From Gaiellales bacterium (GTDB taxonomy: Bacteria > Actinomycetota > Thermoleophilia > Gaiellales > JAICJC01): a DNA stretch of 64,000 nucleotides. The position numbers and the translations under genes were made by a program. The DNA lies in assembly GCA_033856675.1 (NCBI GenBank), contig JAWVEN010000032.1, forward strand, positions 41,081 to 105,080. The letters are read 5' to 3'. Positions 13,116 through 23,875 of this stretch are shown in pieces. Below the pieces are notes generated by a model, which was not told the origin of the DNA, searched no databases, and saw nothing but the letters and a program-made list of their open reading frames with translations. Numbering within the stretch: position 1 is the first letter of the stretch; each line of letters starts with the position of its first letter.

Positions 13116-13958
13116 TCAAGACTTGACGATGACCGTGCCCTTCATTCCGGGGTGCACCGCGCAGAAGTAGTGATACGTGCCGGGTCTCCGGAAGGCCATC
13201 TCGAAACGGGAGTTGGAGTTGAGTGTCCTGGAGGCGAAGCCGCCCCCCTGCTCTGTCACCGTGTGGGGTGCAGCGTCGTGGTTGACCCATGTGATGCTCC
13301 GACCCTTCTGAACGGTCATCACAGCGGGCTGGTATTCGAAGCCGGTGATGTCGACGGCGGACGAACCCGCCGTCGGCTTTGAACGCTTGGCGAGCGGGGC
13401 GCCGCGCCTGACCTCGAGCATCGCGCGCATCCCCATGTTGTCGTGCTCCCCGACGTAGCACTCGAGCTCGTAGATCCCCTCGCCCAGGCGGACCTTCACA
13501 CGCATGGTCTGACCCGGCTGGAGCAACCGCCATTCGAGCTCGGTGCCGTCGTCGCTTTCGCTCTTCAGCTCGAAGCCGTGCACCTGCGTGCCCTTGTTCG
13601 CGATCACGAGGGTGACGAGGCCGGGCCGGATGATCTTCGCCTCGGGCGCCACCGTCCACTCGCCCATCGTGATCTCGAAGCCGCCGGCCCGCACATCGAC
13701 GCGAGTGGACCCCTGAGAGGCCGTGTCCGCCGAGTTGCCTGTATCGCCGTGCCCGGAGCCTGAGGTACTTCCGGCGCTCTGGGACTTCGCCTCGGCGGGG
13801 AATCCGGCTCCGGGGTCATCCCCGGAGCCGGTCGAGCCGCCGCAGGACGCCCCGAGGACGAGCATCGCGAGCACGAGGGGGATGCTGATCACCAGCATCT
13901 GCCTGACCTGAGTCCTGGGCTCAGCCTTCCGCTCGATGTGTCGTTCGGGTGTCCTCAT
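13116..13958 (-). CDS. lipoprotein with two cupredoxin (blue-copper) domains
   Basis: Lipobox LVLGASCGG. Domain 1 has VHGFEL..YELECYVGEHDNMGM (His/Cys/His/Met ligands). Domain 2 has APHTV..YHYFCAVHPGMKG (plastocyanin/amicyanin-like). Alternative start at 13898. Confidence 0.85.
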   Translation of the reverse strand: MRTPERHIERKAEPRTQVRQMLVISIPLVLAMLVLGASCGGSTGSGDDPGAGFPAEAKSQSAGSTSGSGHGDTGNSADTASQGSTRVDVRAGGFEITMGEWTVAPEAKIIRPGLVTLVIANKGTQVHGFELKSESDDGTELEWRLLQPGQTMRVKVRLGEGIYELECYVGEHDNMGMRAMLEVRRGAPLAKRSKPTAGSSAVDITGFEYQPAVMTVQKGRSITWVNHDAAPHTVTEQGGGFASRTLNSNSRFEMAFRRPGTYHYFCAVHPGMKGTVIVKS

Positions 13959-13997
13959 TGACGTCTGTCTCCTTGCGTCGTCGTCGGTCGCTGGTGG

Positions 13998-14537
13998 TCA
14001 GTCGTCGTTGCCGTGGCCGGAGTCGTCGCCCCCACCGTCGTCGTCGCCGCCACCGTGGCCGCTGTTGTCATCGCTGCCATGGCCGGAGTTGTCGTCGCCG
14101 CCGTTGTCATCGCTGCCGTGGCCGGAGTTGTCGTCGCGGCCGTTGTCGTCGTTGTCGTCGTCACGGCCCGCGCCGGCACCGGTGCACTCGGGATCGTTGG
14201 CGTGCTCGGCCTCGTCGCAGTTGCCCGAGATGTCGCCGGGAGCGTCATCCGACGTCGTTCCGCCGCCGGTAGTGCCACCGCCCGTGGTGCCGCCACCCGT
14301 CGAGCCGCCACCGGCGACGCCGGTGCACTCGGGATCATTGGCGTGCTCGGCTTCGTCGCAGTTGCCCGAGATGTCGACGCCTGTGGACGACGTCGTGCCG
14401 CCCGTCGTCGCGGTCGACCCCGTCGTGCCGCTCGAGTCGTCGCTGCTCGAGCCGCCCGTGGCGGCGAAGCTGACACCGACGCCGAGGATCACGAACCCGA
14501 GCAACATGAGAATGAAAAACCTTCCGAACCGATTCAT
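13998..14537 (-). CDS. small secreted protein with two copies of DISGNCDEAEHANDPECTG and an Asp/Asn/Gly/Ser/His-rich C-terminal tail; unknown family
   Basis: GGGAGG RBS before the ATG at 14537. Signal peptide MNRFGRFFILMLLGFVILGVGVSFA. Ser/Thr/Gly linkers. Tail is DDNSGHGSDDNGGDDNSGHGSDDNSGHGGGDDDGGGDDSGHGNDD. Confidence 0.7.
   Translation of the reverse strand: MNRFGRFFILMLLGFVILGVGVSFAATGGSSSDDSSGTTGSTATTGGTTSSTGVDISGNCDEAEHANDPECTGVAGGGSTGGGTTGGGTTGGGTTSDDAPGDISGNCDEAEHANDPECTGAGAGRDDDNDDNGRDDNSGHGSDDNGGDDNSGHGSDDNSGHGGGDDDGGGDDSGHGNDD
14179..14376 (-). repeat. intragenic 57-nt direct duplication (14179..14235 and 14320..14376, 2 mismatches) encoding the CDEAEHANDPEC motif
   Basis: ccggtgcactcgggatc(g/a)ttggcgtgctcggc(c/t)tcgtcgcagttgcccgagatgtcg read twice directly in the sequence. 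Confidence 0.85.
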
Positions 14538-14807
14538 TGCTTGCCTCCCAGTAGACCTTGTGAACTTGCTGTGCTCACAGGCTACGAGGCGGTCTCCCAA
14601 GCGCGCCTCCCGCGGAGGTCAAGGTTTCGCGGCCGAAAGGTAAAGACACGTCCAAGAGGGCGAGACGGCGCGAACAACCGCAGGTCCGGTCGCCTCCGGG
14701 CGGGCATGCTCAGTGACACGGCCGCGCTCACAGGAGAATCGTTCGGTTACGTCGCCCGCGCCGCGGCGGCGTGCCTCTCAGAATGCCCGCGAATCCCCCG
14801 CCGGGGA

Positions 14808-15209
14808 TCAGTCGTCGTCGCCGGACCCGTGACCGCTGGAGTCGTCGCTTCCGCCGGAGCCCTTGCCGCTCGAATCGTCACTGCCACCGCTGCCGTGGCC
14901 ACTGGGGTCATCATCGGTGGAAGAGCCCGAGGTGGATACTCCACCGGAGGTCGACGACGGAGGCGCCGTCTTGCCCGTGCATTCCGGGTCGTTCTTGTGC
15001 TCGCGCTCCTTACACCGATCGCGTTTCGTCGTCTCGGCCTTGTCCTTCGTGGCGCGCGGCTGGGTGGACGCCTTGCCAACGGATGCGATCGATTCGGCTG
15101 CCGGCACAGATGCCAATGTCTGGCCGGCGGTCAGGTAGACGGCAAGAGCCAGGCCGAGCGGAAGAGCCAGGCCGGCGAGGCTGAGCAGGATCAACGCACC
15201 ACGTTTCAC
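14808..15209 (-). CDS. small secreted/membrane-anchored paralogue-like protein with one CKEREHKNDPECTG motif and an SGHGSG/Asp-rich tail
   Basis: GTG start inferred at 15209 (VKRGALILLSLAGLALPLGLALAVYLTAG). Tail is DDDPSGHGSGGSDDSSGKGSGGSDDSSGHGSGDDD. No clear RBS, so the start is uncertain. Confidence 0.55.
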   Translation of the reverse strand: MKRGALILLSLAGLALPLGLALAVYLTAGQTLASVPAAESIASVGKASTQPRATKDKAETTKRDRCKEREHKNDPECTGKTAPPSSTSGGVSTSGSSTDDDPSGHGSGGSDDSSGKGSGGSDDSSGHGSGDDD

Positions 15210-15255
15210 ACTCTGACGGTAGCAGCCGTTGTCTTCAGGATTGGTAAAGACGCGG

Positions 15256-16680
15256 TCAGCGGTTGGCAGGAGGCTGCGGGAAGTCGATCTCGACCCGCAT
15301 GCCGGGCCCGTCGCCAAGACGCACCCGCCCTTGCCAGCGCTCCGCCAGCTCGAGCACGATGGGAAGGCCAAGGCCCGTCCCCGGCCCTGCTTGGCGGCCA
15401 TTTGAGCCTCGATAGAACCGCTCGAAGATCCGTGGCCGGTCATCGGGCGCGATGCCCGGCCCGTTGTCCTCCACCGCCAGGGTGATGCGCCCGTCGTGCG
15501 GGAGGGCCTCGACCATGATCTGGCTCCCAACCGGCGCATAGCGAATGGCGTTCTCGATCAGGTTGTCGAGGATGTGGGCGACGTCGGCGGGCTCGGCCCA
15601 CACCATGGCCGGCGGGTCGGCGGCGACCACTGCGATCTCATGGCCGCTGATCTCGACGGGACCCGCCCACCGCTTCACTGCCACCCGCGCGGCGTCCGAC
15701 ACGTCGACGATGCCGCCGCTTGCCTCTGTGGCAGACGCGCGCGCGAGCGCGAGCAGGTCGTCGACCAGCGAGCTGAGGCGGTCGACCTCGGTCTCGGCCT
15801 TCGCCGCCTCCTCTCCGACCTCTCCGCCTTCGGCCTGGATCGCCTCCAGGCGGAGCTTGATGCCTGTCAGCGGTGTGCGCAGCTGGTGCGAGGCGTTCGC
15901 GATGAAGTCGCGCTGCGCATCCAGGTTCGCGCCCAGCGCGCGAGCCATCTGGTTGAAGGACTTGCCGACGGCCACGAGCTCGCGAGGCCCCTCCGGCTCG
16001 ACTCGGGTGTCAAGCTCCCCACGGCCGAGCCGCGTTGCAGCGCGTCCCAGCCGCTCCAGCGGCCTGGCCAGCTGGCCGGCCAGCACCCACGCCAGAACCA
16101 GTCCTGCAACCACGACCGCGAGCCCGATGGCGCCGAGCCGCAGCCAGCTCGAGCGGACGTCCGCGCGCACCTCACCCATCGGCGCCGAAACGCGCACCGC
16201 CCCGACGACGTTGCCCTGGTCGACGACGGGCACCGTGACGAGCACGAGCTCCTCGCCCAGCGACTCGCTCTGCCGCCGGCGAGTGTCCACCCTCCCGTCG
16301 AGTGCGACCCCCATCTCGGGGCGATCCGGCGTGGCATATGCGTCGCCCACGTCGGCGACGCCGGAGCTGTCGACCAGCAGCGCTCCCGTGTCGTCGGTGA
16401 CGATCACTCGCCCCTGCTCCGCCACACCCGACGCCTGCGCCCTGGCGAGGATGGCCTTGCGCGCAGCGGCCTGCTGCTTGGCCGTCGCGGTCGTGCTCGC
16501 GGCGGTGACGACCTGATCGGCGCTGCTTGCCGCAAAGAGGGCCGCGTTCCCGAGCACCGCCGCCTCGAACTCCGACGATGCGCGGCGGTCGACGTTCAGC
16601 GCCAGCGGAATCTCGAGCGCGAGGACGACCGCCCCCAGCAAGTAGGCGGCCGCGAGGACGACGCGTGTCCGGAAGCTCAT
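15256..16680 (-). CDS. sensor histidine kinase (TM - extracytoplasmic domain - TM - HAMP - HisKA - HATPase)
   Basis: H-box SHQLRTPLTGI, N-box DNLIENAIRYAP, G-boxes DNGPGI and GTGLGLPIV. Confidence 0.9.
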   Translation of the reverse strand: MSFRTRVVLAAAYLLGAVVLALEIPLALNVDRRASSEFEAAVLGNAALFAASSADQVVTAASTTATAKQQAAARKAILARAQASGVAEQGRVIVTDDTGALLVDSSGVADVGDAYATPDRPEMGVALDGRVDTRRRQSESLGEELVLVTVPVVDQGNVVGAVRVSAPMGEVRADVRSSWLRLGAIGLAVVVAGLVLAWVLAGQLARPLERLGRAATRLGRGELDTRVEPEGPRELVAVGKSFNQMARALGANLDAQRDFIANASHQLRTPLTGIKLRLEAIQAEGGEVGEEAAKAETEVDRLSSLVDDLLALARASATEASGGIVDVSDAARVAVKRWAGPVEISGHEIAVVAADPPAMVWAEPADVAHILDNLIENAIRYAPVGSQIMVEALPHDGRITLAVEDNGPGIAPDDRPRIFERFYRGSNGRQAGPGTGLGLPIVLELAERWQGRVRLGDGPGMRVEIDFPQPPANR

Positions 16681-17387
16681 TCCGAGTCGTCCGCACCGGC
16701 GAAGCGAAAGCCGACGCCGCGGATCGTGTGGATGTACCGCGGCTCGGCCGGATCGTCACCGAGCTTCTTTCGCAGCGCGCTGATGTGAACGTCGAGCGTC
16801 TTCGTCGGCCCGAACCAGTTGGAGTCCCACACCTCGCGGATCAAGTCGTCACGCTTGACAACCTTGCCTGCCCGGGACAGCAGCACGCGGAGCACCTCGA
16901 ATTCTTTCACCGTCAGCTCGAGCCGCTCCCCGGACCTGGACGCCAGGTGGGTCTCCAGGTCCATGCGCACGTCGGACACCTCGAGCAGGCTGGAGCCGTC
17001 GTCGGCGGCCGGCGTCGACTCGTCCGTCCGCCGGAGCACGGCACGTACCCGGGCGATCAACTCCGCAGCGCTGAACGGCTTGGTGACGTAGTCGTCAGCA
17101 CCGAGCTCAAGCCCGAGGACGCGATCCATCTCCTCACCGCGCGCCGTCAGCATCACCACCGGCAGACGGGAAGTGGCGCGGATGTGCCGCAGCAGGTCGC
17201 GGCCGTCGCCGTCCGGCAGCATCACGTCCAGCAGCACCAGGTCGGGCGAGCACGCCTCCAGCAGCTCGAGACCTTTGGCGGCCGTCGACGCGACAACGGG
17301 CTCGAACCCTTCCCGGGCCAGTGCAGCGGCAAGCGGTTCGGAGATCGCCTGCTCGTCCTCGATCAACAGAATGGTTCGTTTGGTCAT
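16677..17387 (-). CDS. OmpR/PhoB-family response regulator
   Basis: Receiver domain (ILLIEDE..LVLLDVMLPDGDG..KPF) plus winged-helix domain (LTVKEFEVL..TLDVHISALRKKL..IHTIRGVGFRF). ATGA overlap with the kinase gene. Confidence 0.95.
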   Translation of the reverse strand: MTKRTILLIEDEQAISEPLAAALAREGFEPVVASTAAKGLELLEACSPDLVLLDVMLPDGDGRDLLRHIRATSRLPVVMLTARGEEMDRVLGLELGADDYVTKPFSAAELIARVRAVLRRTDESTPAADDGSSLLEVSDVRMDLETHLASRSGERLELTVKEFEVLRVLLSRAGKVVKRDDLIREVWDSNWFGPTKTLDVHISALRKKLGDDPAEPRYIHTIRGVGFRFAGADDSE

Positions 17388-17444
17388 CCGTCGCCTACGC
17401 TCGTACTCGTGAGAATCGTAGCGACGGGGGCGGAGTTGCAGGGC

Positions 17445-18545
17445 CTACGGAGGCGTGCCGGGAAGCTCGCCGAGCGTCACGTCGACCGTCCGCGTCTCAC
17501 CGTTGTGGTCGCGCACCGTCACCTTCACGGTGTCGCCCGGGTCGAGCGTCGCCATCACCGCACCCAGCGCGGGCAACGACGGCGTCGGCTGGCCGTCGAC
17601 CTCGGTGATGATCTCTCCCGGCTTGATGCCGGCCTTGTCCGCCGGGCCACCCGGCGTGACGCCTGCAACCAGGACGCCGGGTGCGTTGATCTGTGCCACC
17701 TCGACCCCGAGGTAGGCACGGTGGGTGTTGACCACCTTGCCGTTTTCGATCATCTGCTTGGCGAAGTCCGCCGCGTCGTTGCTGGGGATGGCAAAGCCGA
17801 TGCCCGGAGCCGCGCCCCCGCCACCGGTGGGATTCGTCGCGGCGAGGGTCGGGATGCCGACCACGGCTCCCGTCAGGTCGACCAGCGCACCGCCGCTGTT
17901 GCCGGGGTTGATCGGCGCACTGGTCTGGATCAGGCGCGGAAGCGTCGCACCGGTCGGCTCGGTGATCGTCCGGCCCAGCGCGCTGACGATGCCGTTCGTG
18001 ACGCTGCTCTGAAGGCCGAGCGGGTTGCCGATCGCAAGCACGATCTCGCCGACTTCGACCTTGTCCGAGTCGGCGAATGCCGCCGCCGGCAGCCCGTCGG
18101 GGTTCTGCACCCGGATCACGGCCACGTCGTTTGCGGGGAACGTCGAGACCAGAGTTGCGCCGAACGACTTCCCGTCGGCCGAGGTAACCTCGAACTTGGT
18201 GAAGTTGCCGACGACGTGAGCATTGGTGACGATGTCACCCTTGTCGTCGAACACGACACCGGAGCCGAGCCCACCCTCGGTGCGGATCAGGACCACCGAC
18301 GGGGACACCTTGTCGATGACCTCGATGTACGCCTCCTGCACGCCCTCCGCAGCGTCCGTCGGAGAAACCGGGTCCGCGCTTACAGCGGTCGAGGCCGCCG
18401 AGTCGCTCGAAGCCGACGTATCGCCCCCTGAGCATCCGGTGAGCGCGAGGAGCAGCACAACGGGGAGCGCCGCCGCGGCCCTCCGGATCGCCTGTGGCCG
18501 GCGGCGCTGACGTTCGGCCCAGGTGCACTTGGCATCGACAGTCAC
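17445..18545 (-). CDS. HtrA/DegP-type S1C serine protease with PDZ domain; lipoprotein signal
   Basis: Lipobox LALTGCSGG. Catalytic motifs TNAHVV and GNSGGALV. C-terminal PDZ-like segment. Confidence 0.9.
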   Translation of the reverse strand: MTVDAKCTWAERQRRRPQAIRRAAAALPVVLLLALTGCSGGDTSASSDSAASTAVSADPVSPTDAAEGVQEAYIEVIDKVSPSVVLIRTEGGLGSGVVFDDKGDIVTNAHVVGNFTKFEVTSADGKSFGATLVSTFPANDVAVIRVQNPDGLPAAAFADSDKVEVGEIVLAIGNPLGLQSSVTNGIVSALGRTITEPTGATLPRLIQTSAPINPGNSGGALVDLTGAVVGIPTLAATNPTGGGGAAPGIGFAIPSNDAADFAKQMIENGKVVNTHRAYLGVEVAQINAPGVLVAGVTPGGPADKAGIKPGEIITEVDGQPTPSLPALGAVMATLDPGDTVKVTVRDHNGETRTVDVTLGELPGTPP

Positions 18546-18685
18546 GCCGTGATTCAGGTATGCCGCCGGAGTGCTGCTTCAAGTGGCGCCGGCGCAGCCT
18601 GCTACGGCAGGGCAGTCGTCGATGTTCCAGATGTGGCGTCGGGATCGGGGGCGTAAAGGATCACAGGCACGCCATTCTGCGGCAC

Positions 18686-19519
18686 CTACGGCGTTGTCGA
18701 ACGGCTTCGAGAAGCGCGTTTCAGCGACACTTCGGGTTGCCGCCCGTCCGCGTCCACCGCGGCGTACCCAAGCGCGCTCGAGATCCGGACGGTGTGGTGC
18801 AGCAACTTCTGGCCGAGATCGTGCTCCCGTCCCTCGAGGCGCTGGGTGGGTGCCGACACGCTCACGGTTGCCGCAACCTGGTGAGGGCCGCTCATCACCG
18901 GGCCGGCGACGCACCGCACCCCGGCCTCGTTTTCCTCCGCCTCGACGGCATAGCCACGGCGACGCACCCGGCGAAGCTCGCTTTCGAGCCGGGACAGATC
19001 GGTGATCGTGGTCTCGGTGAACCGCTCCGGGGCAGTGCCGACCAGGTCTCGCCAATCCGGGCGGTGCGCAAGCAGCACCTTGCCGGATGCCGTGGCGTGC
19101 AGCGGCAGCGCACGGCCGACCTCGCGATGCACCTGAACGCCGCGGGCCCCCGCGACCTGATCGACGTAGACGGCCACGCGGCCCTCGAGAACGAGCAGGT
19201 TGGCGGTCTCGCCGATCTCCTTCGTCACCGCCTCGAGGTGGGGCCGGGCGAGGGCGCGCAGATACGCGCTGCGGCGCCGGGCGTCGTCGGCGAACCGTGA
19301 CATGCGGTAAGCCAGTACGTAGCCCTCGCCGTCGACCGAGACGACGTACCCCTCCGCGCACAGGATCTGGAGCGTCTTGCGAATCAGCTTCAGCTCCTCA
19401 CCCGTGGACGCCGCGATCTCGGTGGCATGGCAACCGGGGAACTCCCTCAGCGCTTCGAGGATCAGGAAGGCGCGACGCACCACGGCGGTCGGCAGCGTTG
19501 CCGACGGCGAGGTCCTCAT
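18686..19519 (-). CDS. IclR family transcriptional regulator
   Basis: Winged HTH (AFLILEALREFPG..ATEIAASTGEELKLIRKTLQIL) plus an IclR effector domain. ATGA overlap with the upstream IclR gene. Confidence 0.9.
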   Translation of the reverse strand: MRTSPSATLPTAVVRRAFLILEALREFPGCHATEIAASTGEELKLIRKTLQILCAEGYVVSVDGEGYVLAYRMSRFADDARRRSAYLRALARPHLEAVTKEIGETANLLVLEGRVAVYVDQVAGARGVQVHREVGRALPLHATASGKVLLAHRPDWRDLVGTAPERFTETTITDLSRLESELRRVRRRGYAVEAEENEAGVRCVAGPVMSGPHQVAATVSVSAPTQRLEGREHDLGQKLLHHTVRISSALGYAAVDADGRQPEVSLKRASRSRSTTP

Positions 19520-20451
19520 GACTCGTCTCCGCCCGGTGCCTCGAAGGCGCGGTCAAAATCGCTCTTCAGCGTCCGTGCGCCAGGGTCATCGCTCGGCGAC
19601 AGAACAGAGTGCCCGAGCTGGCGGGAGAGCTCCACTGCGTGCCGGCGAAGCAGGCGGGTGAGGCCCGCCTGCATCTCCAGCAGCCGGGTCGTCGGGGCGC
19701 AGACGCTGATCGCCGCAACGGGCGCAAGAGTGGTGCTGAACACGGGTGCGGCGATGCAGGTGACACCGATCTCGTTCTCCTCCCGCTCCAGCGAGACACC
19801 GCTCTCGCGGATGGCGGCGAACTCCGCCTCGAGCTCCGCCGCGGTGGTCTTGGTGTGCAACGTCAGCCGGTCATAGGGCTCCTCCCGGCCGAGCGCCGCC
19901 CGCCATTCCTTGGCGTACGCGAGGAACGCCTTCCCGGAGGCCACCGAGTGTGCCGAGAAGCCCCGGCCGAGCTCCATGTTCATCCGCACACGGCGGGTGC
20001 CCTCGGCCTGTTCGATGCAGACCGCCCGGCCGCGCTCCAACACCACCAGGTTGACGGTCTCGCCGCAGGCATCGCGGATTGCGTTCAGATGAGGGCGCGC
20101 AACCGCGCGGAGCTCACCCGTTCGCTTCCCGGCGCCCTGCGCGAGCGCAAGGACGGCGTAGCCGAGGCGGTAGCGCCCCGATCGGCGGTCCTGCGTGACG
20201 AACTCCCGGGCGCACAGCGTCCCCAGCAGCCGGTGGACGGTGCTTGGATGCAGGCCGACCTCGTCGGCGAGCTCGCCCAGGCGCGAGTCGCCCAGGCGGC
20301 CGAGGGCCTCGAGCAGATCGAGGGCGCGCAGCAGCGACTGGACGCTGGACGCGTTTCGCTCCGATGCGGTGTTGCCGACCACTTGAACGGCATCCCCTCG
20401 GCGATGGGCGGGCTTGACGCTAATGGGCGCCGTCGCCGTCCGTTGAGACAA
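19516..20451 (-). CDS. IclR family transcriptional regulator (second, tandem copy)
   Basis: VQSLLRALDLLEALGRLGDSRLGELADEVGLHPSTVHRLL plus an effector domain. TTG 20451 overlaps the RidA 3' end; GTG 20382 is a plausible shorter start. Confidence 0.85.
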   Translation of the reverse strand: MSQRTATAPISVKPAHRRGDAVQVVGNTASERNASSVQSLLRALDLLEALGRLGDSRLGELADEVGLHPSTVHRLLGTLCAREFVTQDRRSGRYRLGYAVLALAQGAGKRTGELRAVARPHLNAIRDACGETVNLVVLERGRAVCIEQAEGTRRVRMNMELGRGFSAHSVASGKAFLAYAKEWRAALGREEPYDRLTLHTKTTAAELEAEFAAIRESGVSLEREENEIGVTCIAAPVFSTTLAPVAAISVCAPTTRLLEMQAGLTRLLRRHAVELSRQLGHSVLSPSDDPGARTLKSDFDRAFEAPGGDES

Positions 20452-20897: not shown

Positions 20898-22592
20898 TCA
20901 CTTCAGCGTCAGATTTGCCGGGCCGCCCTCGGCCACGGTGCCCGCGTACCGGCCGCCGCTCAGCGGCTGGGCGATCACGACGCTCGAGCGAAGCACCGTG
21001 ATCGCGGTGCTGGTCGCGACCATCACGGCGTGTGAGACGACATCGACGGGGTCGACGATACCGGCGTCCACGCCGTCCACCTCGCGGCCGGTGACCGTGT
21101 CGAACGCGAGCCACTCGCGACCCGCGCGCAGGCGGCCGACGACCTCGGGAACGTCCCAGCCGCCATTTCGCGCCAGTACTCGCGCCGGCTCTTCGCACGC
21201 CCGGCGCATGACCTCGAACCCGGCCGCCTCGCCGCCGCCGTGGCCATTCACCTTCGGCGCCTCGAGCGATGCCCCGGCGCGAAGGAGGGCGGCGCCGCCG
21301 CCGGGAACGACGCCCGAAGCCACTGCCCGCTTCACTGCCGCGAGCGCATCGAGACCGCGGCGGAACCGCTCGCGGCGCTCCACGTCGGTCGGCGCGCCGA
21401 TCCGCACCGAGGCGCACCCCGCGCCGGCCAGCCGAGAGCGCCTAGCCTCGAGCAGATCGCGGTCGTGGAGCGAATCCGCATCTCGCGCGTCGGATGCCAG
21501 CGCGGCAACCCGCAAGCGGAGCATCTGCGGGTCCGCGCCGCCGTCGTGAACCGTCGTCGTCGCGCGGCCGACGACGACGCGCCCGGCTGAACCGAGCGCG
21601 CCGGCATGGGCCTTGCCGAACACCACCAGACCCGCCTGGTCCACAACCGTCGCACCGGTGAACACGGCGAGGTCCTCGAGCACCTCCGAGCGGGTCACGC
21701 CGTGACCGGGCGCGACCACCGGGACGCACGTCGCACGCCTGTTCAGGCCGTTGACGGTGATCATCGCGAGGACATCCGCTCCGAAGCCGGTCGCAACGGC
21801 CAGCAGCGGCCGCCCGGTCGCCTGGCAGACCTCGAGCACACGGGAGAACGCGCGCATGTCGGAGACCTCGACGGAGCTGACGAAGACGAGTGCGTCTTGC
21901 AACACGGCCTCGGCGGCGCCGCGGTCGGGGATCAGGTTGGGGTCGAGATAGCCGCCCTTGATCGAGAACGACTCGTCGACGTCGACGGTGACCCCGGCCT
22001 CGTGGCCGCCCTCCTCGAGCAGCACGTTGTCACTCCCCACCCGCTCGACCGCCTCGGCGACCGCCCGGCCGATCTCAACGTCGCCGGCCGCCTGCCGGCC
22101 GACCACCTCGAGCTGCGCCACGGATTCGGCCCGTACCGAGCGCGCCGCCAGGCCGGCACACACCTGCTCGGCGGCGGCCTGCATCCCCCGCGTCACCGAC
22201 ACCGGCTCGTGACCGGCCATCACAACCCGCAGGCCGCCGCGCACCATCGCATCCGACAGCACGATCGCGGTGGTGCTTCCGTCGCCGGTGCCGCGTTTCG
22301 CCATCTTCGCTGCATCGCGGGCGAGGAACACCCCCTGGTTTCGGTACGTGTTCGACGTCAGGATCTCGCGCGCGATGGCATAGCCGTCGTTCCCCAGCAC
22401 CGGCGCGCCGGCCTTGCTGTCCATGGCCGAAACCGAGATCTCCGGCGTCCCGAACCTGCTGTCCATCATGACGACGCGGCCATGCGGGCCGAGCGTGCCC
22501 GAGACGACGCGCGCGACGAGGTTGATGCCGTCGGCGAGGTCACCCCTGGCACGTCCGTCATATCTGATTCCGCGTGCCGGCCGCTGGGGCAT
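20898..22592 (-). CDS. GroEL-like (Cpn60 family) chaperonin homologue, monooxygenase-associated type
   Basis: LGPHGRVVMMD.., KRGTGDGSTTAIVL (compare GDGTTT), ..GVVPGGGAALL.. GGAGGA RBS. ATG lies 2 nt after the upstream stop. Confidence 0.85.
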   Translation of the reverse strand: MPQRPARGIRYDGRARGDLADGINLVARVVSGTLGPHGRVVMMDSRFGTPEISVSAMDSKAGAPVLGNDGYAIAREILTSNTYRNQGVFLARDAAKMAKRGTGDGSTTAIVLSDAMVRGGLRVVMAGHEPVSVTRGMQAAAEQVCAGLAARSVRAESVAQLEVVGRQAAGDVEIGRAVAEAVERVGSDNVLLEEGGHEAGVTVDVDESFSIKGGYLDPNLIPDRGAAEAVLQDALVFVSSVEVSDMRAFSRVLEVCQATGRPLLAVATGFGADVLAMITVNGLNRRATCVPVVAPGHGVTRSEVLEDLAVFTGATVVDQAGLVVFGKAHAGALGSAGRVVVGRATTTVHDGGADPQMLRLRVAALASDARDADSLHDRDLLEARRSRLAGAGCASVRIGAPTDVERRERFRRGLDALAAVKRAVASGVVPGGGAALLRAGASLEAPKVNGHGGGEAAGFEVMRRACEEPARVLARNGGWDVPEVVGRLRAGREWLAFDTVTGREVDGVDAGIVDPVDVVSHAVMVATSTAITVLRSSVVIAQPLSGGRYAGTVAEGGPANLTLK

Positions 22593-22594
22593 GC

Positions 22595-23875
22595 CTATCC
22601 TCCGTTCATCCGGTTGCCGCTGGGCGCGCAGGCCCCATGGAGCGCGTGGTGCTCGAGATCCGAGCGGAACTTCTGCACCGCCGAGTACACGGGTAGGCGG
22701 GGCATCGCGATCAAGCTGCAGATGCCGCCCTGCCCGTTTGCGAAATCGACGACCTCGGGCAGCTTGTCGATCAGCACCGGCGGCGCTCCGCCTTTGATCT
22801 GGCCGACGAGCTTCGCCAGCATGTTGGTCTCCATCCGGCACGGCGGGCACTGGCCGCACTGCTCGCGGGCGAAGAACTCGCAGATCTCGAGCAGGCGCTC
22901 GAGCATGCACTCGTCGTCGCCCATCACCGTGAAGACCGCGCACCCGAGCGCCGAGCCGAGGCTACGGATCGACTCGTGGTCGAGTGGGACGTCGAGCTCT
23001 GCGGCCGTCAGGAATCCCGAGGACGGCCCTCCGGGAAGCACGGCGCGGATCGGCCGCCCGGAGCGAAGCGGTCCCCCGCACGACTCCAGCATCTCGCGCA
23101 CGTTCGTGCCGAGCTCCACCTCGTAGACGCCCGGGCGTTCGAGCTCGTCGCCCAAGGTGCAGAGCACCGTGCCGCTGCTCGACCCGGTACCCAGCTCGCG
23201 GTACCAGTCGGGCCCTTCGCGGAAGATCACTGCAAGCGTCGCCGCCGTCTCGACGTTCAGCACCGCGGTCGGCCGGCGCAGCAGTCCCTCCGTGACGGGG
23301 TACGGCGGGCGCTCGGCGGGCAGCGCGCTCCCACCGCCCAGGAACGCAAGCGCAGCGGTGTCCTCGCCGGAGATGTACGACGCAGGCGCGACGGCCAGGC
23401 GCAGCACGATCTCGCCGTCGGAGCGCTCGCCATCCCCCTCCGCAGCCCATGGGTCGGTGCGGATTCCGCCCGCGGCCGCCGCCGCCTCGACCCGGGCTCC
23501 CGAGGACGGGTAGAGCTCGCTGATGTAGAACACCGCGTCGCGCGCCCCGACCAGCCTCGCAGCGATCAGCGCGCCCTCGACCACCAAGCCTGGGCATTGC
23601 TCCAGCAGCGCCTGGTCCTTGCCGCTGCCTGGCTCGTCCTCCGCCCCGTTCACCACAACGTATTTCTGCTCACCGTCAGCCTCTGAGGCGAGTCGCAGCT
23701 TCGTCCCGGTGGGGAAACCTGCGCCGCCGCGGCCTCGCAACCCGGAGCGTTCGGCCCACTCCAGGCCCTCCTCGACCGGCAGCGCGCCCGCCGCCTCCCA
23801 GCCGGCGTACGACAGCGTGTCGTCACGTCCGAACACCGGGCCGGCGTACATCCGCGGCACTGCCGAAAGGCTCAT
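22595..23875 (-). CDS. NuoF/HoxF-like NAD(P)H-binding FMN and [4Fe-4S] flavoprotein
   Basis: GLRGRGGAGFPTGTK (FMN/NADH site), SLBB-like middle region, and CGQCPPCR...C cluster motif. ATGA overlap with the upstream M20 gene. Confidence 0.85.
   Translation of the reverse strand: MSLSAVPRMYAGPVFGRDDTLSYAGWEAAGALPVEEGLEWAERSGLRGRGGAGFPTGTKLRLASEADGEQKYVVVNGAEDEPGSGKDQALLEQCPGLVVEGALIAARLVGARDAVFYISELYPSSGARVEAAAAAGGIRTDPWAAEGDGERSDGEIVLRLAVAPASYISGEDTAALAFLGGGSALPAERPPYPVTEGLLRRPTAVLNVETAATLAVIFREGPDWYRELGTGSSSGTVLCTLGDELERPGVYEVELGTNVREMLESCGGPLRSGRPIRAVLPGGPSSGFLTAAELDVPLDHESIRSLGSALGCAVFTVMGDDECMLERLLEICEFFAREQCGQCPPCRMETNMLAKLVGQIKGGAPPVLIDKLPEVVDFANGQGGICSLIAMPRLPVYSAVQKFRSDLEHHALHGACAPSGNRMNGG

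What the first reader, a model, noticed from the sequence alone, without database searches (positions are those of the whole stretch)
13116..18545. HtrA / two-component / small His-Asp-rich proteins / double-cupredoxin cluster: candidate undescribed envelope metal or redox stress module
Six co-directional genes:
- lipoprotein HtrA protease
- OmpR-type regulator
- sensor kinase (ATGA-coupled)
- two small secreted proteins with a shared Cys motif and SGHG/Asp-rich tails
- a lipoprotein with two type-1-copper-like domains, whose linker also contains SGSGHGDTGNS

Two-component systems beside HtrA genes are known as envelope-stress units (MprAB-PepD, CssRS-HtrA types). I do not recognise the attached small proteins, and their composition (His, Asp, Cys) plus the cupredoxins points to metal (copper?) buffering or extracytoplasmic electron transfer under control of the two-component system.
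Basis: partly seen in the sequence, partly recalled or inferred. Interest (0 to 1): 0.65.

Follow-up and report, generated by a model that had tools for sequence, protein, structure and literature searches.

The report
Two-component system with dedicated acidic Cys-loop proteins
A soil actinobacterial sensor-regulator gene pair is tied, here and in most related genomes sampled, to a previously undescribed family of small, secreted, very acidic proteins with an almost invariant 19-residue two-cysteine loop; these look like the system's main output and possibly part of its sensor, while the neighbouring protease and copper-protein genes are later, lineage-specific additions.

Summary
Six co-directional minus-strand genes fill 13116-18545: lipoprotein HtrA, OmpR-type regulator, HAMP histidine kinase (ATGA overlap), two small proteins, and a lipoprotein with two complete type-1 copper sites.

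The small proteins match no Pfam, NCBIfam or PDB entry. They belong to a large family (404 clusters at 50% identity; 440 matches across 185,579 species genomes), all from uncultured Thermoleophilia and Acidimicrobiia. The family has a signal peptide or membrane anchor, disordered linkers, 1-4 copies of D-[IV]-S-G-P-C-D-E-A-E-H-A-N-D-P-R-C-T-G, and a Gly/Asp/Ser tail (median net charge -25).

The conserved partner is the two-component system, not HtrA. About 65 of 80 loci place the gene beside a sensor-regulator pair, in three layouts and with two unrelated kinase/regulator families. A matrix built only from one layout's promoters finds its best hits upstream of the small genes in the other layout, and at 15223-15263 in this window. 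HtrA linkage appears only in the closest relatives, and the cupredoxin only in a sub-clade.

The most likely function is a regulator-controlled surface cation/metal-binding layer (copper favoured in this lineage) that may feed back on the kinase. The chemistry is untested. This is a new variant of the "two-component system plus accessory protein" theme.

The parts
17445..18545 (-). Lipoprotein HtrA/DegP-type serine protease (trypsin-like domain plus one PDZ domain). It is a lineage-specific addition to the module.
   Evidence: Pfam Trypsin_2 E 1.9e-32 and PDZ_2 E 2.6e-15. NCBIfam degP_htrA_DO scores 266 bits, below its cut-off. Lipobox LALTGC was read. The gene is linked to the two-component system only in L081 and L082 and is absent from 80 wider loci.
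16677..17387 (-). OmpR/PhoB-family response regulator.
   Evidence: Pfam Response_reg E 2.1e-26 and Trans_reg_C E 1.9e-28. The best solved relative is RegX3, 2oqr (E 8e-65). Orthologues are 56-84% identical next to small-protein genes in 56 loci.
15256..16680 (-). Sensor histidine kinase: TM, extracytoplasmic domain of about 150 aa, TM, HAMP, HisKA, HATPase_c. The ATGA overlap couples its translation to the regulator gene.
   Evidence: Pfam. In the sensor domain, RPE..AL.G....R.S is conserved, and 50 of 54 orthologues have no Cys there.
15233..15261 (-). Three direct-repeat half-sites about 10-11 bp apart (GCTGACC / TCTTTACC / TCCTGAAG). This is the putative regulator-binding site overlapping the -35 region of the smallA promoter.
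   Evidence: The block is conserved across 23 loci. The two best hits of the type-2-derived matrix in the whole 64-kb window fall at 15223-15263.
15216..15224 (-). Extended -10 element TGCTACCGT, 6 nt before the GTG start of smallA. This predicts a leaderless smallA mRNA.
   Evidence: TGCTA[CG]CGT lies 6-7 nt before the start codon and is conserved in type-1 loci. The sequence was read.
14808..15209 (-). smallA: a membrane-anchored (N-in) acidic protein of 133 aa. It has a conserved TM helix, one C-x10-C loop (14979-15014) and the C-terminus DDSSGHGSGDDD.
   Evidence: An equivalent gene lies directly after the kinase gene in the type-1 loci that were inspected. The family has 62 clusters, none with a Pfam match. 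The TM segment GLALPxGLALAVYLT and the C-terminus are conserved.
14579..14646 (-). smallB promoter region: half-sites TCTTTACC (14639-14646) and CCTTGACC (14617-14624), and -10 TAGCCT (14579-14584). An untranslated leader follows, with the ribosome-binding site GGGAGG at 14544-14549.
   Evidence: The block is conserved in 23 type-1 loci and in L081 and L082. TCTTTACC hits are listed. Shared 6-mers are enriched.
13998..14537 (-). smallB: a secreted acidic protein of 179 aa. It has a signal peptide (VSFA|A), two 19-residue Cys loops (14319-14375 and 14178-14234) and a Gly/Asp/Ser/His tail.
   Evidence: There are 853+ homologues, all annotated hypothetical. The AlphaFold2 model has mean pLDDT 54.9 and is disordered apart from the signal helix and the two loops, where pLDDT is about 70-75.
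13116..13958 (-). Lipoprotein with two cupredoxin domains, each with a type-1 copper ligand set. It is separated from smallB by 39 nt that contain an AAGGAG ribosome-binding site, so the two genes are probably co-transcribed.
   Evidence: Pfam Copper-bind E 8.9e-15 and Cupredoxin_1 E 5.7e-14. H127/C167/H172/M177 and H232/C266/H269/M272 are invariant. The model shows two beta domains. Foldseek matches amicyanin with TM 0.71 at 31-34% identity.

Best explanation
The core of this cluster is a conserved signalling cassette of uncultured soil Actinomycetota. It consists of an OmpR-type regulator, a HAMP histidine kinase, and two kinds of dedicated extracytoplasmic proteins that are intrinsically disordered and strongly acidic. 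One kind (smallA) is anchored in the membrane by a conserved helix. The other (smallB) is secreted and carries 1-4 copies of an almost invariant 19-residue two-cysteine loop.

**Shown**
- The small genes sit beside a two-component system in about 80% of sampled loci, in three gene orders and with two unrelated kinase/regulator families.
- Their promoters share tandem C(C/T)T(N)ACC repeats with about 11-bp spacing.

**Inferred**
- The phosphorylated regulator binds these repeats and switches on smallA (leaderless mRNA) and the smallB-cupredoxin operon.
- The exported proteins form a polyanionic layer at the cell surface that binds cations or metal. The loop's Glu/Glu/His/Asp/Cys residues and the Asp/His tail would be the binding groups.
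- This layer buffers the stimulus, and through the membrane-anchored paralogue may report back to a kinase whose own sensor domain lacks Cys or His ligands.

In this Gaiellales lineage the cassette has also acquired a two-domain blue-copper lipoprotein and an HtrA protease. That points to copper or extracytoplasmic redox stress as the relevant stimulus here.
For: **Linkage**
- tblastn and de novo clustering of 80 loci show that only the kinase and regulator genes are broadly conserved neighbours.
- The layouts are RR-HK-smallA-smallB (22 loci plus the window), smallB-RR-HK (34 loci), and smallB followed by a HisKA_3 kinase and a LuxR-type regulator (7 loci).
- Membrane-anchored proteins with the acidic tail accompany the kinase or regulator in all three layouts.
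- The DxSGxG unit is confined to the module in 84 of 86 ORFs across 1.5 Mb.

**Regulation**
- Conserved promoter blocks lie upstream of the small genes, and 6-mers are shared among them.
- A matrix built only from type-2 promoters puts its top hit(s) upstream of smallA or smallB in about 20 of 23 type-1 loci. Its two best hits in the window are at 15223-15263.

**Protein chemistry**
- The motif logo comes from 163 instances. Median net charge is -25 and the tail is 29% Gly and 27% Asp.
- Selection acts at the protein level.
- The protein is disordered apart from the loops.
- 50 of 54 kinase sensor domains have no Cys.

**Copper link**
- Both cupredoxin domains keep invariant type-1 copper ligands. 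In distant homologues an acidic DxSGxGS insertion lies just after the first His ligand.
- The gap between smallB and the cupredoxin gene is tight.

**Known analogues**
- SilE, a disordered periplasmic metal sponge of the silver-resistance sil system (PMC5008109).
- copMRS, in which a copper-binding protein is the first gene of an operon with the two-component system that controls it (PMC4335983).
- HbpS-SenS-SenR, a secreted sensory partner of a kinase (PMC4991794).
Against: - No metal binding, expression or regulator-DNA binding has been measured. No RNA data exist for this sequence.
- His is dispensable in the tail. In SGXG units X is Pro as often as His, and 10 of 84 tails have no His.
- smallA relatives often have divergent loops or none.
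- No copper ATPase, HMA-domain or Sco signature motif was found in the 64-kb window by a regex scan of the six-frame translation, and no such gene recurs in the 80 loci.
- The cupredoxin is attached in only about 10 loci.
- About 11 loci have the small gene without an adjacent two-component system.
- The smallB promoter in the window matches the tandem matrix only weakly, with a score of -1.0.
- C(C/T)TNACC repeats at 11-bp spacing resemble sites of several OmpR/PhoB-family regulators, so assigning them to this particular regulator is an inference.
Confidence: 0.45

Rival explanations
1. Disulfide or secretion-stress sentinel. The invariant Cys pair of the small proteins reports the state of extracytoplasmic oxidative folding in trans. 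This would be a split version of the CutS sensor, or a CpxP-like inhibitor. When disulfides fail to form, the unfolded small protein is removed (in this lineage by the adjacent HtrA), the kinase changes state, and the small genes are induced.
For: The Cys pair is invariant in 163 loops, whereas the kinase sensor domain has no Cys in 50 of 54 orthologues. HtrA is adjacent in the window, L081 and L082. In Streptomyces, CutS senses through two extracellular cysteines and CutR controls htrA genes (PMC12802291). The small genes carry the putative regulator sites, as cpxP does in the Cpx system (the Cpx comparison is from my own knowledge).
Against: All 19 residues of the loop are near-invariant, not only the cysteines. 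That suggests a specific ligand rather than a generic folding reporter. HtrA is absent from 80 wider loci and has no repeat element upstream. Many smallA-type partners lack cysteines altogether. The CutR motif TAWATAAA differs from the repeats found here. The scenario also gives no role to the polyacidic tail.
Confidence: 0.2
2. General polyanionic envelope proteins. The small proteins would be structural surface polyanions, for example handling hard cations such as Ca or Mg, or acting as phosphate-free substitutes for wall polyanions. They would be switched on by the two-component system but have no sensing or feedback role and no transition-metal specificity.
For: Median net charge is -25, the proteins are disordered, and the tail is rich in Gly, Asp and Ser. 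The regulator's closest solved relative is the phosphate-responsive RegX3. The repeat TT(N)ACC at 11-bp spacing resembles Pho-box-type sites (my own knowledge). His is not required in the tail.
Against: The invariant Cys loop and the conserved smallA TM helix go beyond what a bulk polyanion needs. No pst or pho genes are conserved nearby. The regulator and kinase score below the NCBIfam PhoB and PhoR cut-offs. Recruitment by two unrelated two-component families suggests a closer functional tie.
Confidence: 0.18
3. Precursor of a secreted peptide signal. The repeated 19-residue loops would be released from the linkers as disulfide-cyclised peptides and sensed by the adjacent kinase, in the manner of quorum sensing.
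For: Identical units occur in several copies separated by variable linkers. The protein has a signal peptide and its gene sits next to a kinase-regulator pair.
Against: The loop is almost identical across two classes of Actinomycetota, whereas pheromones typically diverge between strains. No conserved processing sites flank the loop, and no dedicated processing or export gene is conserved nearby. This scenario also leaves the conserved acidic tail and the Cys-less anchored paralogues unexplained.
Confidence: 0.07

Closest known systems
SilE / PcoE periplasmic metal 'sponges' of the silver and copper resistance systems (PMC5008109)
   Same: Both are small, exported, intrinsically disordered proteins thought to buffer metal outside the cytoplasm. 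From my own knowledge, silE and pcoE are encoded beside, and controlled by, an OmpR-type two-component system.
   Different: There is no sequence relationship (no Pfam hit). SilE uses His/Met motifs and has no cysteines. The proteins here have an invariant Cys loop, an Asp/Gly/Ser tail, a Gram-positive-type envelope context and no efflux pump nearby.
copMRS operon of Synechocystis (PMC4335983)
   Same: An exported metal-binding protein is the first gene of an operon that also encodes the two-component system controlling it. The type-2 layout smallB-RR-HK has the same order.
   Different: No Pfam family, including DUF305 (which CopM belongs to, from my own knowledge), matched the small proteins. 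No RND efflux genes are nearby, and metal specificity here is unknown.
HbpS-SenS-SenR three-component system of Streptomyces (PMC4991794, PMC3754957)
   Same: An actinobacterial secreted protein acts with a kinase and regulator as the sensory part of the signalling pathway.
   Different: HbpS is a folded octameric haem/iron-binding protein. The proteins here are disordered, acidic and unrelated in sequence.
CutRS / CssRS secretion-stress systems with HtrA proteases (PMC12802291)
   Same: An actinobacterial OmpR-type two-component system is associated with HtrA genes, and a conserved extracytoplasmic Cys pair is implicated in sensing.
   Different: Here the Cys pair lies on separate small proteins rather than in the kinase. 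The DNA repeat differs from TAWATAAA. HtrA linkage is limited to the closest relatives.
Amicyanin/plastocyanin-type cupredoxins and the EfeO N-terminal cupredoxin domain
   Same: The C-terminal domain matches amicyanin (TIGR02657 E 2.8e-14; Foldseek TM 0.71). The N-terminal domain weakly matches the EfeO N-terminus (E 3.2e-6). Both domains keep the His/Cys/His/Met ligands.
   Different: This protein is a tandem two-domain lipoprotein with a disordered acidic linker. It is co-transcribed with smallB, and its redox partner is unknown.

Membership tests
HtrA/DegP (S1C) serine proteases | Trypsin-like domain with a His/Asp/Ser triad, plus at least one C-terminal PDZ domain. | tested here: met
   Pfam Trypsin_2 covers residues 94-231 and PDZ_2 covers 278-358. 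TNAHVV, NDVAVI and GNSGG were read in the translation. The protein scores below every NCBIfam equivalog cut-off, so it is a family member but not a named orthologue.
OmpR/PhoB-type two-component system | Receiver domain plus winged-helix Trans_reg_C in the regulator, and HisKA plus HATPase_c in the partner kinase. | tested here: met
   The H-box SHQLRTPL and the ATGA overlap were read.
Named orthologues (PhoB/PhoR, MtrAB, CseBC, CopRS/CusRS, CpxRA, BaeSR) | Score above the curated NCBIfam equivalog cut-off. | tested here: not met
   All scores fall below the cut-offs. Examples: MtrA 219 against 300, PhoB 211 against 296, cztR_silR_copR 199 against 279, and the heavy-metal sensor kinase 140 against 293.
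CutRS (Streptomyces) | Two conserved cysteines in the kinase's extracellular sensor domain, and a TAWATAAA regulator site. | tested here: not met
   Fifty of 54 orthologous sensor domains have no Cys. The conserved promoter repeats are C(C/T)TNACC. The CutRS features are taken from PMC12802291.
Type-1 (blue) copper cupredoxins | Greek-key beta fold with His...Cys-x(n)-His-x(n)-Met ligands. | tested here: met
   Pfam Copper-bind and Cupredoxin_1 match. The ligands are invariant in both domains. The fold is supported by the model and the PDB search. Copper binding itself was not measured.
Known accessory or metal-sponge families (SilE/PcoE, CopM/DUF305, CpxP/ZraP/Spy, HbpS) | Sequence membership in the corresponding Pfam or NCBIfam model. 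| tested here: not met
   smallA, smallB and three homologues have no Pfam hit at E<=0.1-1. Fourteen members show no consistent NCBIfam hit. The family profile finds no PDB sequence.
New Cys-loop / acidic-tail family (defined here) | N-terminal signal peptide or TM anchor; at least one copy of C-x-E-x-E-H-x-x-D-P-x-C within D[IV]SGPC...C[TA]G; a Gly/Asp/Ser tail with DxSGxG units. | tested here: met
   smallB meets all three features with two loops. smallA has the anchor, a variant loop (CKEREHKNDPEC) and the tail.

The most novel reading that the evidence does not exclude
The Cys-loop and acidic-tail proteins are a portable, trans-acting sensory cassette. Two unrelated histidine-kinase families would have recruited these extracytoplasmic ligand- or redox-sensing modules independently. 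Binding of a metal, or a change in disulfide state, in the 19-residue loop would be relayed through the membrane-anchored paralogue to a kinase that cannot sense the signal itself. This would be a new class of three- or four-component signalling system, widespread in uncultured soil Thermoleophilia and Acidimicrobiia.
Probability: 0.25. Interest if true: 0.8.

Novelty: new variant of a known kind. Interest (0 to 1): 0.6.

Why it matters
Thermoleophilia and Acidimicrobiia are common soil bacteria whose signalling has, to my knowledge, hardly been studied experimentally. This work defines an unannotated protein family of about 400 clusters at 50% identity, with no Pfam, NCBIfam or PDB match, that is bound to two-component systems. 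The kinase's own sensor domain shows no obvious ligand-binding residues.

If the small proteins bind metal, they would be a Gram-positive-type counterpart of the SilE, PcoE and CopM sponges, built on a different chemistry (a disulfide-constrained Glu/His/Asp loop plus a polyacidic tail). If they also signal to the kinase, they add a new accessory-protein mechanism.

The 19-residue loop is small enough for direct peptide chemistry. The predicted regulator site and leaderless promoter give an immediately testable regulon. The result also shows that gene callers miss these genes or place them on the wrong strand.

Tried and rejected
- **Known families.** Pfam, NCBIfam and PDB-sequence searches of the small proteins gave nothing consistent. 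The single weak hits (ArfC_sunset at 20 bits, New_glue, CopL_fam at E 0.24) are low-complexity noise.
- **Literature.** A full-text search for the motif string found no paper.
- **Expression.** The window is found only in soil metagenome DNA runs, and no RNA run holds it.
- **HtrA as a core member.** Rejected.
- **Regulator site upstream of HtrA.** The apparent TCCTTTACG half-site is a remnant of a glyoxalase coding sequence, and the matrix score there is at background.
- **Domain fusions as a functional clue.** Rejected. The long hits are a frameshift fusion with the regulator (P0235), an unrelated eukaryotic repeat (P0247), or a small sub-family with an extra beta-rich domain.
- **Neighbours of loci without a two-component system.** These are an EamA-type transporter, an M28-like peptidase, a DEAD-box helicase and an aldehyde dehydrogenase. 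These identifications are by eye and show no common theme.
- **Copper genes in the window.** Regex scans of the six-frame translation for the signature motifs of HMA domains (M-[TSH]-C-x-x-C), P-type ATPases (DKTGT) and Sco proteins found none. The HCH pattern matched only shadow or unrelated ORFs.
- **RNA elements.** Rfam and terminator or promoter consensus scans found nothing significant.
- **Structure search for smallB.** Not attempted, because the model is too disordered.

Full report
**1. What is in the window**

Six co-directional genes fill 13116-18545 on the minus strand.
- HtrA, 17445-18545: Trypsin_2 plus PDZ, with lipobox LALTGC.
- OmpR-type response regulator, 16677-17387.
- Histidine kinase, 15256-16680: TM, sensor domain of about 150 aa, TM, HAMP, HisKA, HATPase_c. 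Its start overlaps the regulator's stop (ATGA).
- smallA, 14808-15209: GTG start, 133 aa.
- smallB, 13998-14537: ATG after a GGGAGG ribosome-binding site, 179 aa.
- A 280-aa lipoprotein, 13116-13958, 39 nt downstream of smallB and preceded by AAGGAG.

smallA carries CKEREHKNDPEC. smallB carries two copies of DISGNCDEAEHANDPECTG. Both end in Asp/Gly/Ser/His-rich tails. The motif occurs nowhere else in the 64 kb.

The lipoprotein has two cupredoxin domains. Each carries a complete His/Cys/His/Met set that is invariant in 18 homologues. The model shows two beta domains, and the C-terminal domain superposes on amicyanin (TM 0.71).

The cluster is bounded by an IclR-family gene upstream and a convergent AsnC/Lrp-family gene downstream. 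Only the start codons of the small genes needed refining.

**2. Origin of the window**

The sequence is held only by soil-metagenome DNA runs. The cupredoxin is 98% identical to a protein from a Gaiellales MAG. The host is therefore an uncultured member of the Thermoleophilia.

**3. The small proteins form a large, unannotated family**

Neither protein matches Pfam or NCBIfam. Scans of homologues give no consistent hit, and a family profile finds nothing among PDB sequences. A full-text search for the motif found no paper.

The family is nevertheless large.
- smallB has more than 853 homologues at 90% clustering, all annotated hypothetical.
- A 30-column motif profile finds 404 clusters at 50% identity among 1.84 billion representatives. 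Nearly all are 66-300 aa and none has a real domain fusion.
- A scan of 185,579 species genomes found 440 matches. The 80 best are all MAGs of Gaiellaceae, Thermoleophilaceae, Solirubrobacterales, Ilumatobacteraceae and relatives.

The logo from 163 motif instances is D-[IV]-S-G-P-C-D-E-A-E-H-[A/R]-N-D-P-[R/E]-C-[T/A]-G. Most proteins have two copies, 19-60 residues apart. The tail is 29% Gly, 27% Asp and 13% Ser, and median net charge is -25. In SGXG units, X is Pro (80), His (76), Arg (26) or Ser (22), and 10 of 84 tails lack His.

At the DNA level the invariant residues use varied synonymous codons, including both AGC and TCN for Ser. Selection therefore acts on the peptide. AlphaFold2 with 85 sequences gives mean pLDDT 54.9. 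Only the signal helix and the two loops reach about 70-75, so the protein is disordered with two small knots.

smallA represents a smaller sister family of 62 clusters. Its members share a strongly conserved TM helix (GLALPxGLALAVYLTSAxSLAAVP), a more variable C-x10-C loop (..LDPDC) and the conserved C-terminus DDSSGHGSGDDD.

**4. What is conserved around the small genes**

I searched the 80 loci with the six window proteins by tblastn and clustered all ORFs de novo. Only the kinase and regulator genes are broadly conserved neighbours. Three layouts occur.
- Type 1, as in the window: RR-HK-smallA-smallB. This covers 22 loci, with regulators 59-84% identical.
- Type 2: smallB-RR-HK. This covers 34 loci, with regulators about 58-62% identical.
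- Acidimicrobiia: smallB followed by a HisKA_3 kinase and a LuxR/GerE-type regulator, a different two-component family. This covers 7 loci.

Two further loci have a convergent OmpR-type pair. About 11 loci have no adjacent two-component system, and a few contigs are truncated.

A smallA-type gene follows the kinase gene in the type-1 loci that were inspected. Sometimes its loop is degenerate or absent. Membrane-anchored proteins with the same acidic tail but no loop follow the kinase in at least 9 of 33 type-2 loci. In 5 of 7 Acidimicrobiia loci they lie convergent to the LuxR-type regulator.

In 1.5 Mb of loci, 84 of the 86 ORFs with two or more DxSGxG units lie in the module. The other two are such anchored partners. 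The tail is therefore a hallmark of the module and not a general property of these proteomes.

HtrA was not found in any of the 80 loci at E<=1e-5. It is present, in the same order, only in the two closest relatives recovered through the cupredoxin (L081 and L082). The cupredoxin follows smallB in 7 of the 80 loci, plus L081, L082 and the window.

**5. Shared cis-elements**

The kinase-smallA spacer holds a conserved block. It consists of three half-sites about 10-11 bp apart (consensus TCCTCACC / GCCTGACC / TTCCTGAAG) followed by an extended -10 element, TGCTA[C/G]CGT, 6-7 nt before the start codon. This geometry predicts a leaderless mRNA, which from my own knowledge is common in Actinobacteria.

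Upstream of smallB in type-1 loci lie TCTTTACC and, about 21 bp later, TCTTCACC. A -10 TAGCCT and a leader with a ribosome-binding site follow.

Upstream of the type-2 operon lies CTTTACCGACTCCTAACCGAACCCTG.

The three promoter sets share enriched 6-mers: CTTAAC, TTAACC, CTAACC and CTTTAC.

As a cross-check, I built a position matrix only from type-2 promoters and scanned about 40,000 positions per type-1 locus. Its best hit, or best two hits, fall upstream of smallA or smallB in about 20 of 23 loci. In the whole window (127,942 positions) the two best hits are at 15223-15263.

Type-2 operons include the regulator gene itself. The simplest reading is that this is the cognate regulator's site and that the small genes are its primary regulon. 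This is an inference.

No such element lies upstream of HtrA or the regulator gene. The apparent half-site near 18655 belongs to a decayed glyoxalase gene.

**6. The kinase**

In 54 orthologues the sensor domain conserves RPE..AL.G....R.S, which by eye resembles a PDC-type sensor fold. It has no conserved His or Cys, and 50 of 54 have no Cys at all. The regulator's best solved relative is RegX3. Both proteins score below every NCBIfam equivalog cut-off, so the system is not a named orthologue.

**7. Most likely mechanism**

Shown:
- A four-part cassette: regulator, kinase, anchored acidic protein and secreted Cys-loop protein.
- Shared promoter repeats.

Inferred:
- The phosphorylated regulator activates smallA and the smallB(-cupredoxin) operon.
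- The exported proteins bind cations or metal at the cell surface.
- The anchored paralogue may couple this to the kinase, whose own sensor domain lacks soft-metal ligands.

The copper or redox flavour in this lineage rests on two points. The first is the co-transcribed double blue-copper lipoprotein. The second is that distant cupredoxin homologues carry the same acidic DxSGxGS unit inserted a few residues after the first copper-ligand His.

Functional analogues are SilE (PMC5008109), copMRS (PMC4335983) and HbpS-SenS-SenR (PMC4991794). None is related in sequence.

**8. Rival explanations**

- **Trans-acting disulfide or secretion-stress sentinel**, a split version of the CutS mechanism (PMC12802291), with HtrA as effector. 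The invariant Cys pair and the Cys-free kinase make this attractive. The full 19-residue invariance, the restricted HtrA linkage and the Cys-less anchored partners weaken it.
- **Bulk surface polyanion with no sensing role**, possibly handling hard cations or responding to phosphate limitation. This fits the tail but not the loop or the conserved TM helix.
- **Peptide pheromone precursor.** This is unlikely because the loop is identical across classes and no processing genes are conserved.

**9. Novelty and limits**

The theme of a two-component system plus a dedicated extracytoplasmic accessory or output protein is known. The protein family, its loop, its repeated recruitment by two two-component families, and the four-part layout are not described in any library or paper that I could search.

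Everything functional is inferred from comparative genomics. There are no expression data, no biochemistry, and no cultured host among the loci seen. I rate it a new variant of a known kind, with interest 0.6.

Noticed in passing
window 18590-18685 (-): A decayed remnant of a glyoxalase gene lies between the IclR-family gene and HtrA. The gene is intact in relative L081 (5108-5506), whose C-terminal ...DPEGHIWEI coding sequence aligns with the window, where it is frameshifted.
   Followed up: partly
window 14655-14800 (-): About 140 nt lie between the smallA stop and the smallB promoter that relative L081 lacks. The stretch begins with a CCCCGGCGGGGG hairpin right after the stop. The whole 275-nt spacer that contains it folds better than shuffles (z -2.5). 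There is no Rfam match.
   Followed up: partly
L020, L026, L047, L052, L053, L061, L063, L065, L076 (just after the kinase gene); L003, L004, L017, L023, L080 (convergent to the LuxR-type regulator gene): Membrane-anchored proteins with a conserved ISGDSVGLSA segment or S/T-rich linkers and DDSGxGSG acidic tails, but no Cys loop, accompany the two-component system in the other two layouts.
   Followed up: partly
P0051, P0249, P0267, P0273 (L036 region): A sub-family of Cys-loop proteins carries an extra beta-rich domain of about 90 aa (...GSVAYS..G..L.V..V....GW...VE...G.E.EV.F..G...V.V.VE...G.VRERVR.RD) between the loops and the acidic tail. P0051 has no Pfam match.
   Followed up: no
L082 7364-7834; P0235: Automatic gene calling placed a 156-aa gene on the wrong strand where smallA lies in L082. 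P0235 is a frameshift fusion of a Cys-loop protein with the downstream regulator. Genes of this family are easily mis-annotated in high-GC MAGs.
   Followed up: partly
cupredoxin homologues P0128, P0130, P0133, P0141-P0146 (alignment A4, columns 143-160): Distant homologues of the double cupredoxin carry an acidic insertion (for example DGDDSSGSGSGDDGD, GDNSGPGSSHDDG, GDHSGSGHSGGGD) a few residues after the first His ligand of domain 1. It is the same unit as in the small-protein tails.
   Followed up: partly
window 20898-22943 (-) and 18686-20451 (-): Upstream of the cluster lie a chaperonin-60-like gene and a RidA-like gene (Pfam names taken from the syntenic locus L081). Two tandem IclR-family regulator genes follow. 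Downstream lie a convergent AsnC/Lrp-family regulator gene and a Rieske oxygenase gene. This arrangement is syntenic with L081 and L082 and appears unrelated to the module.
   Followed up: no
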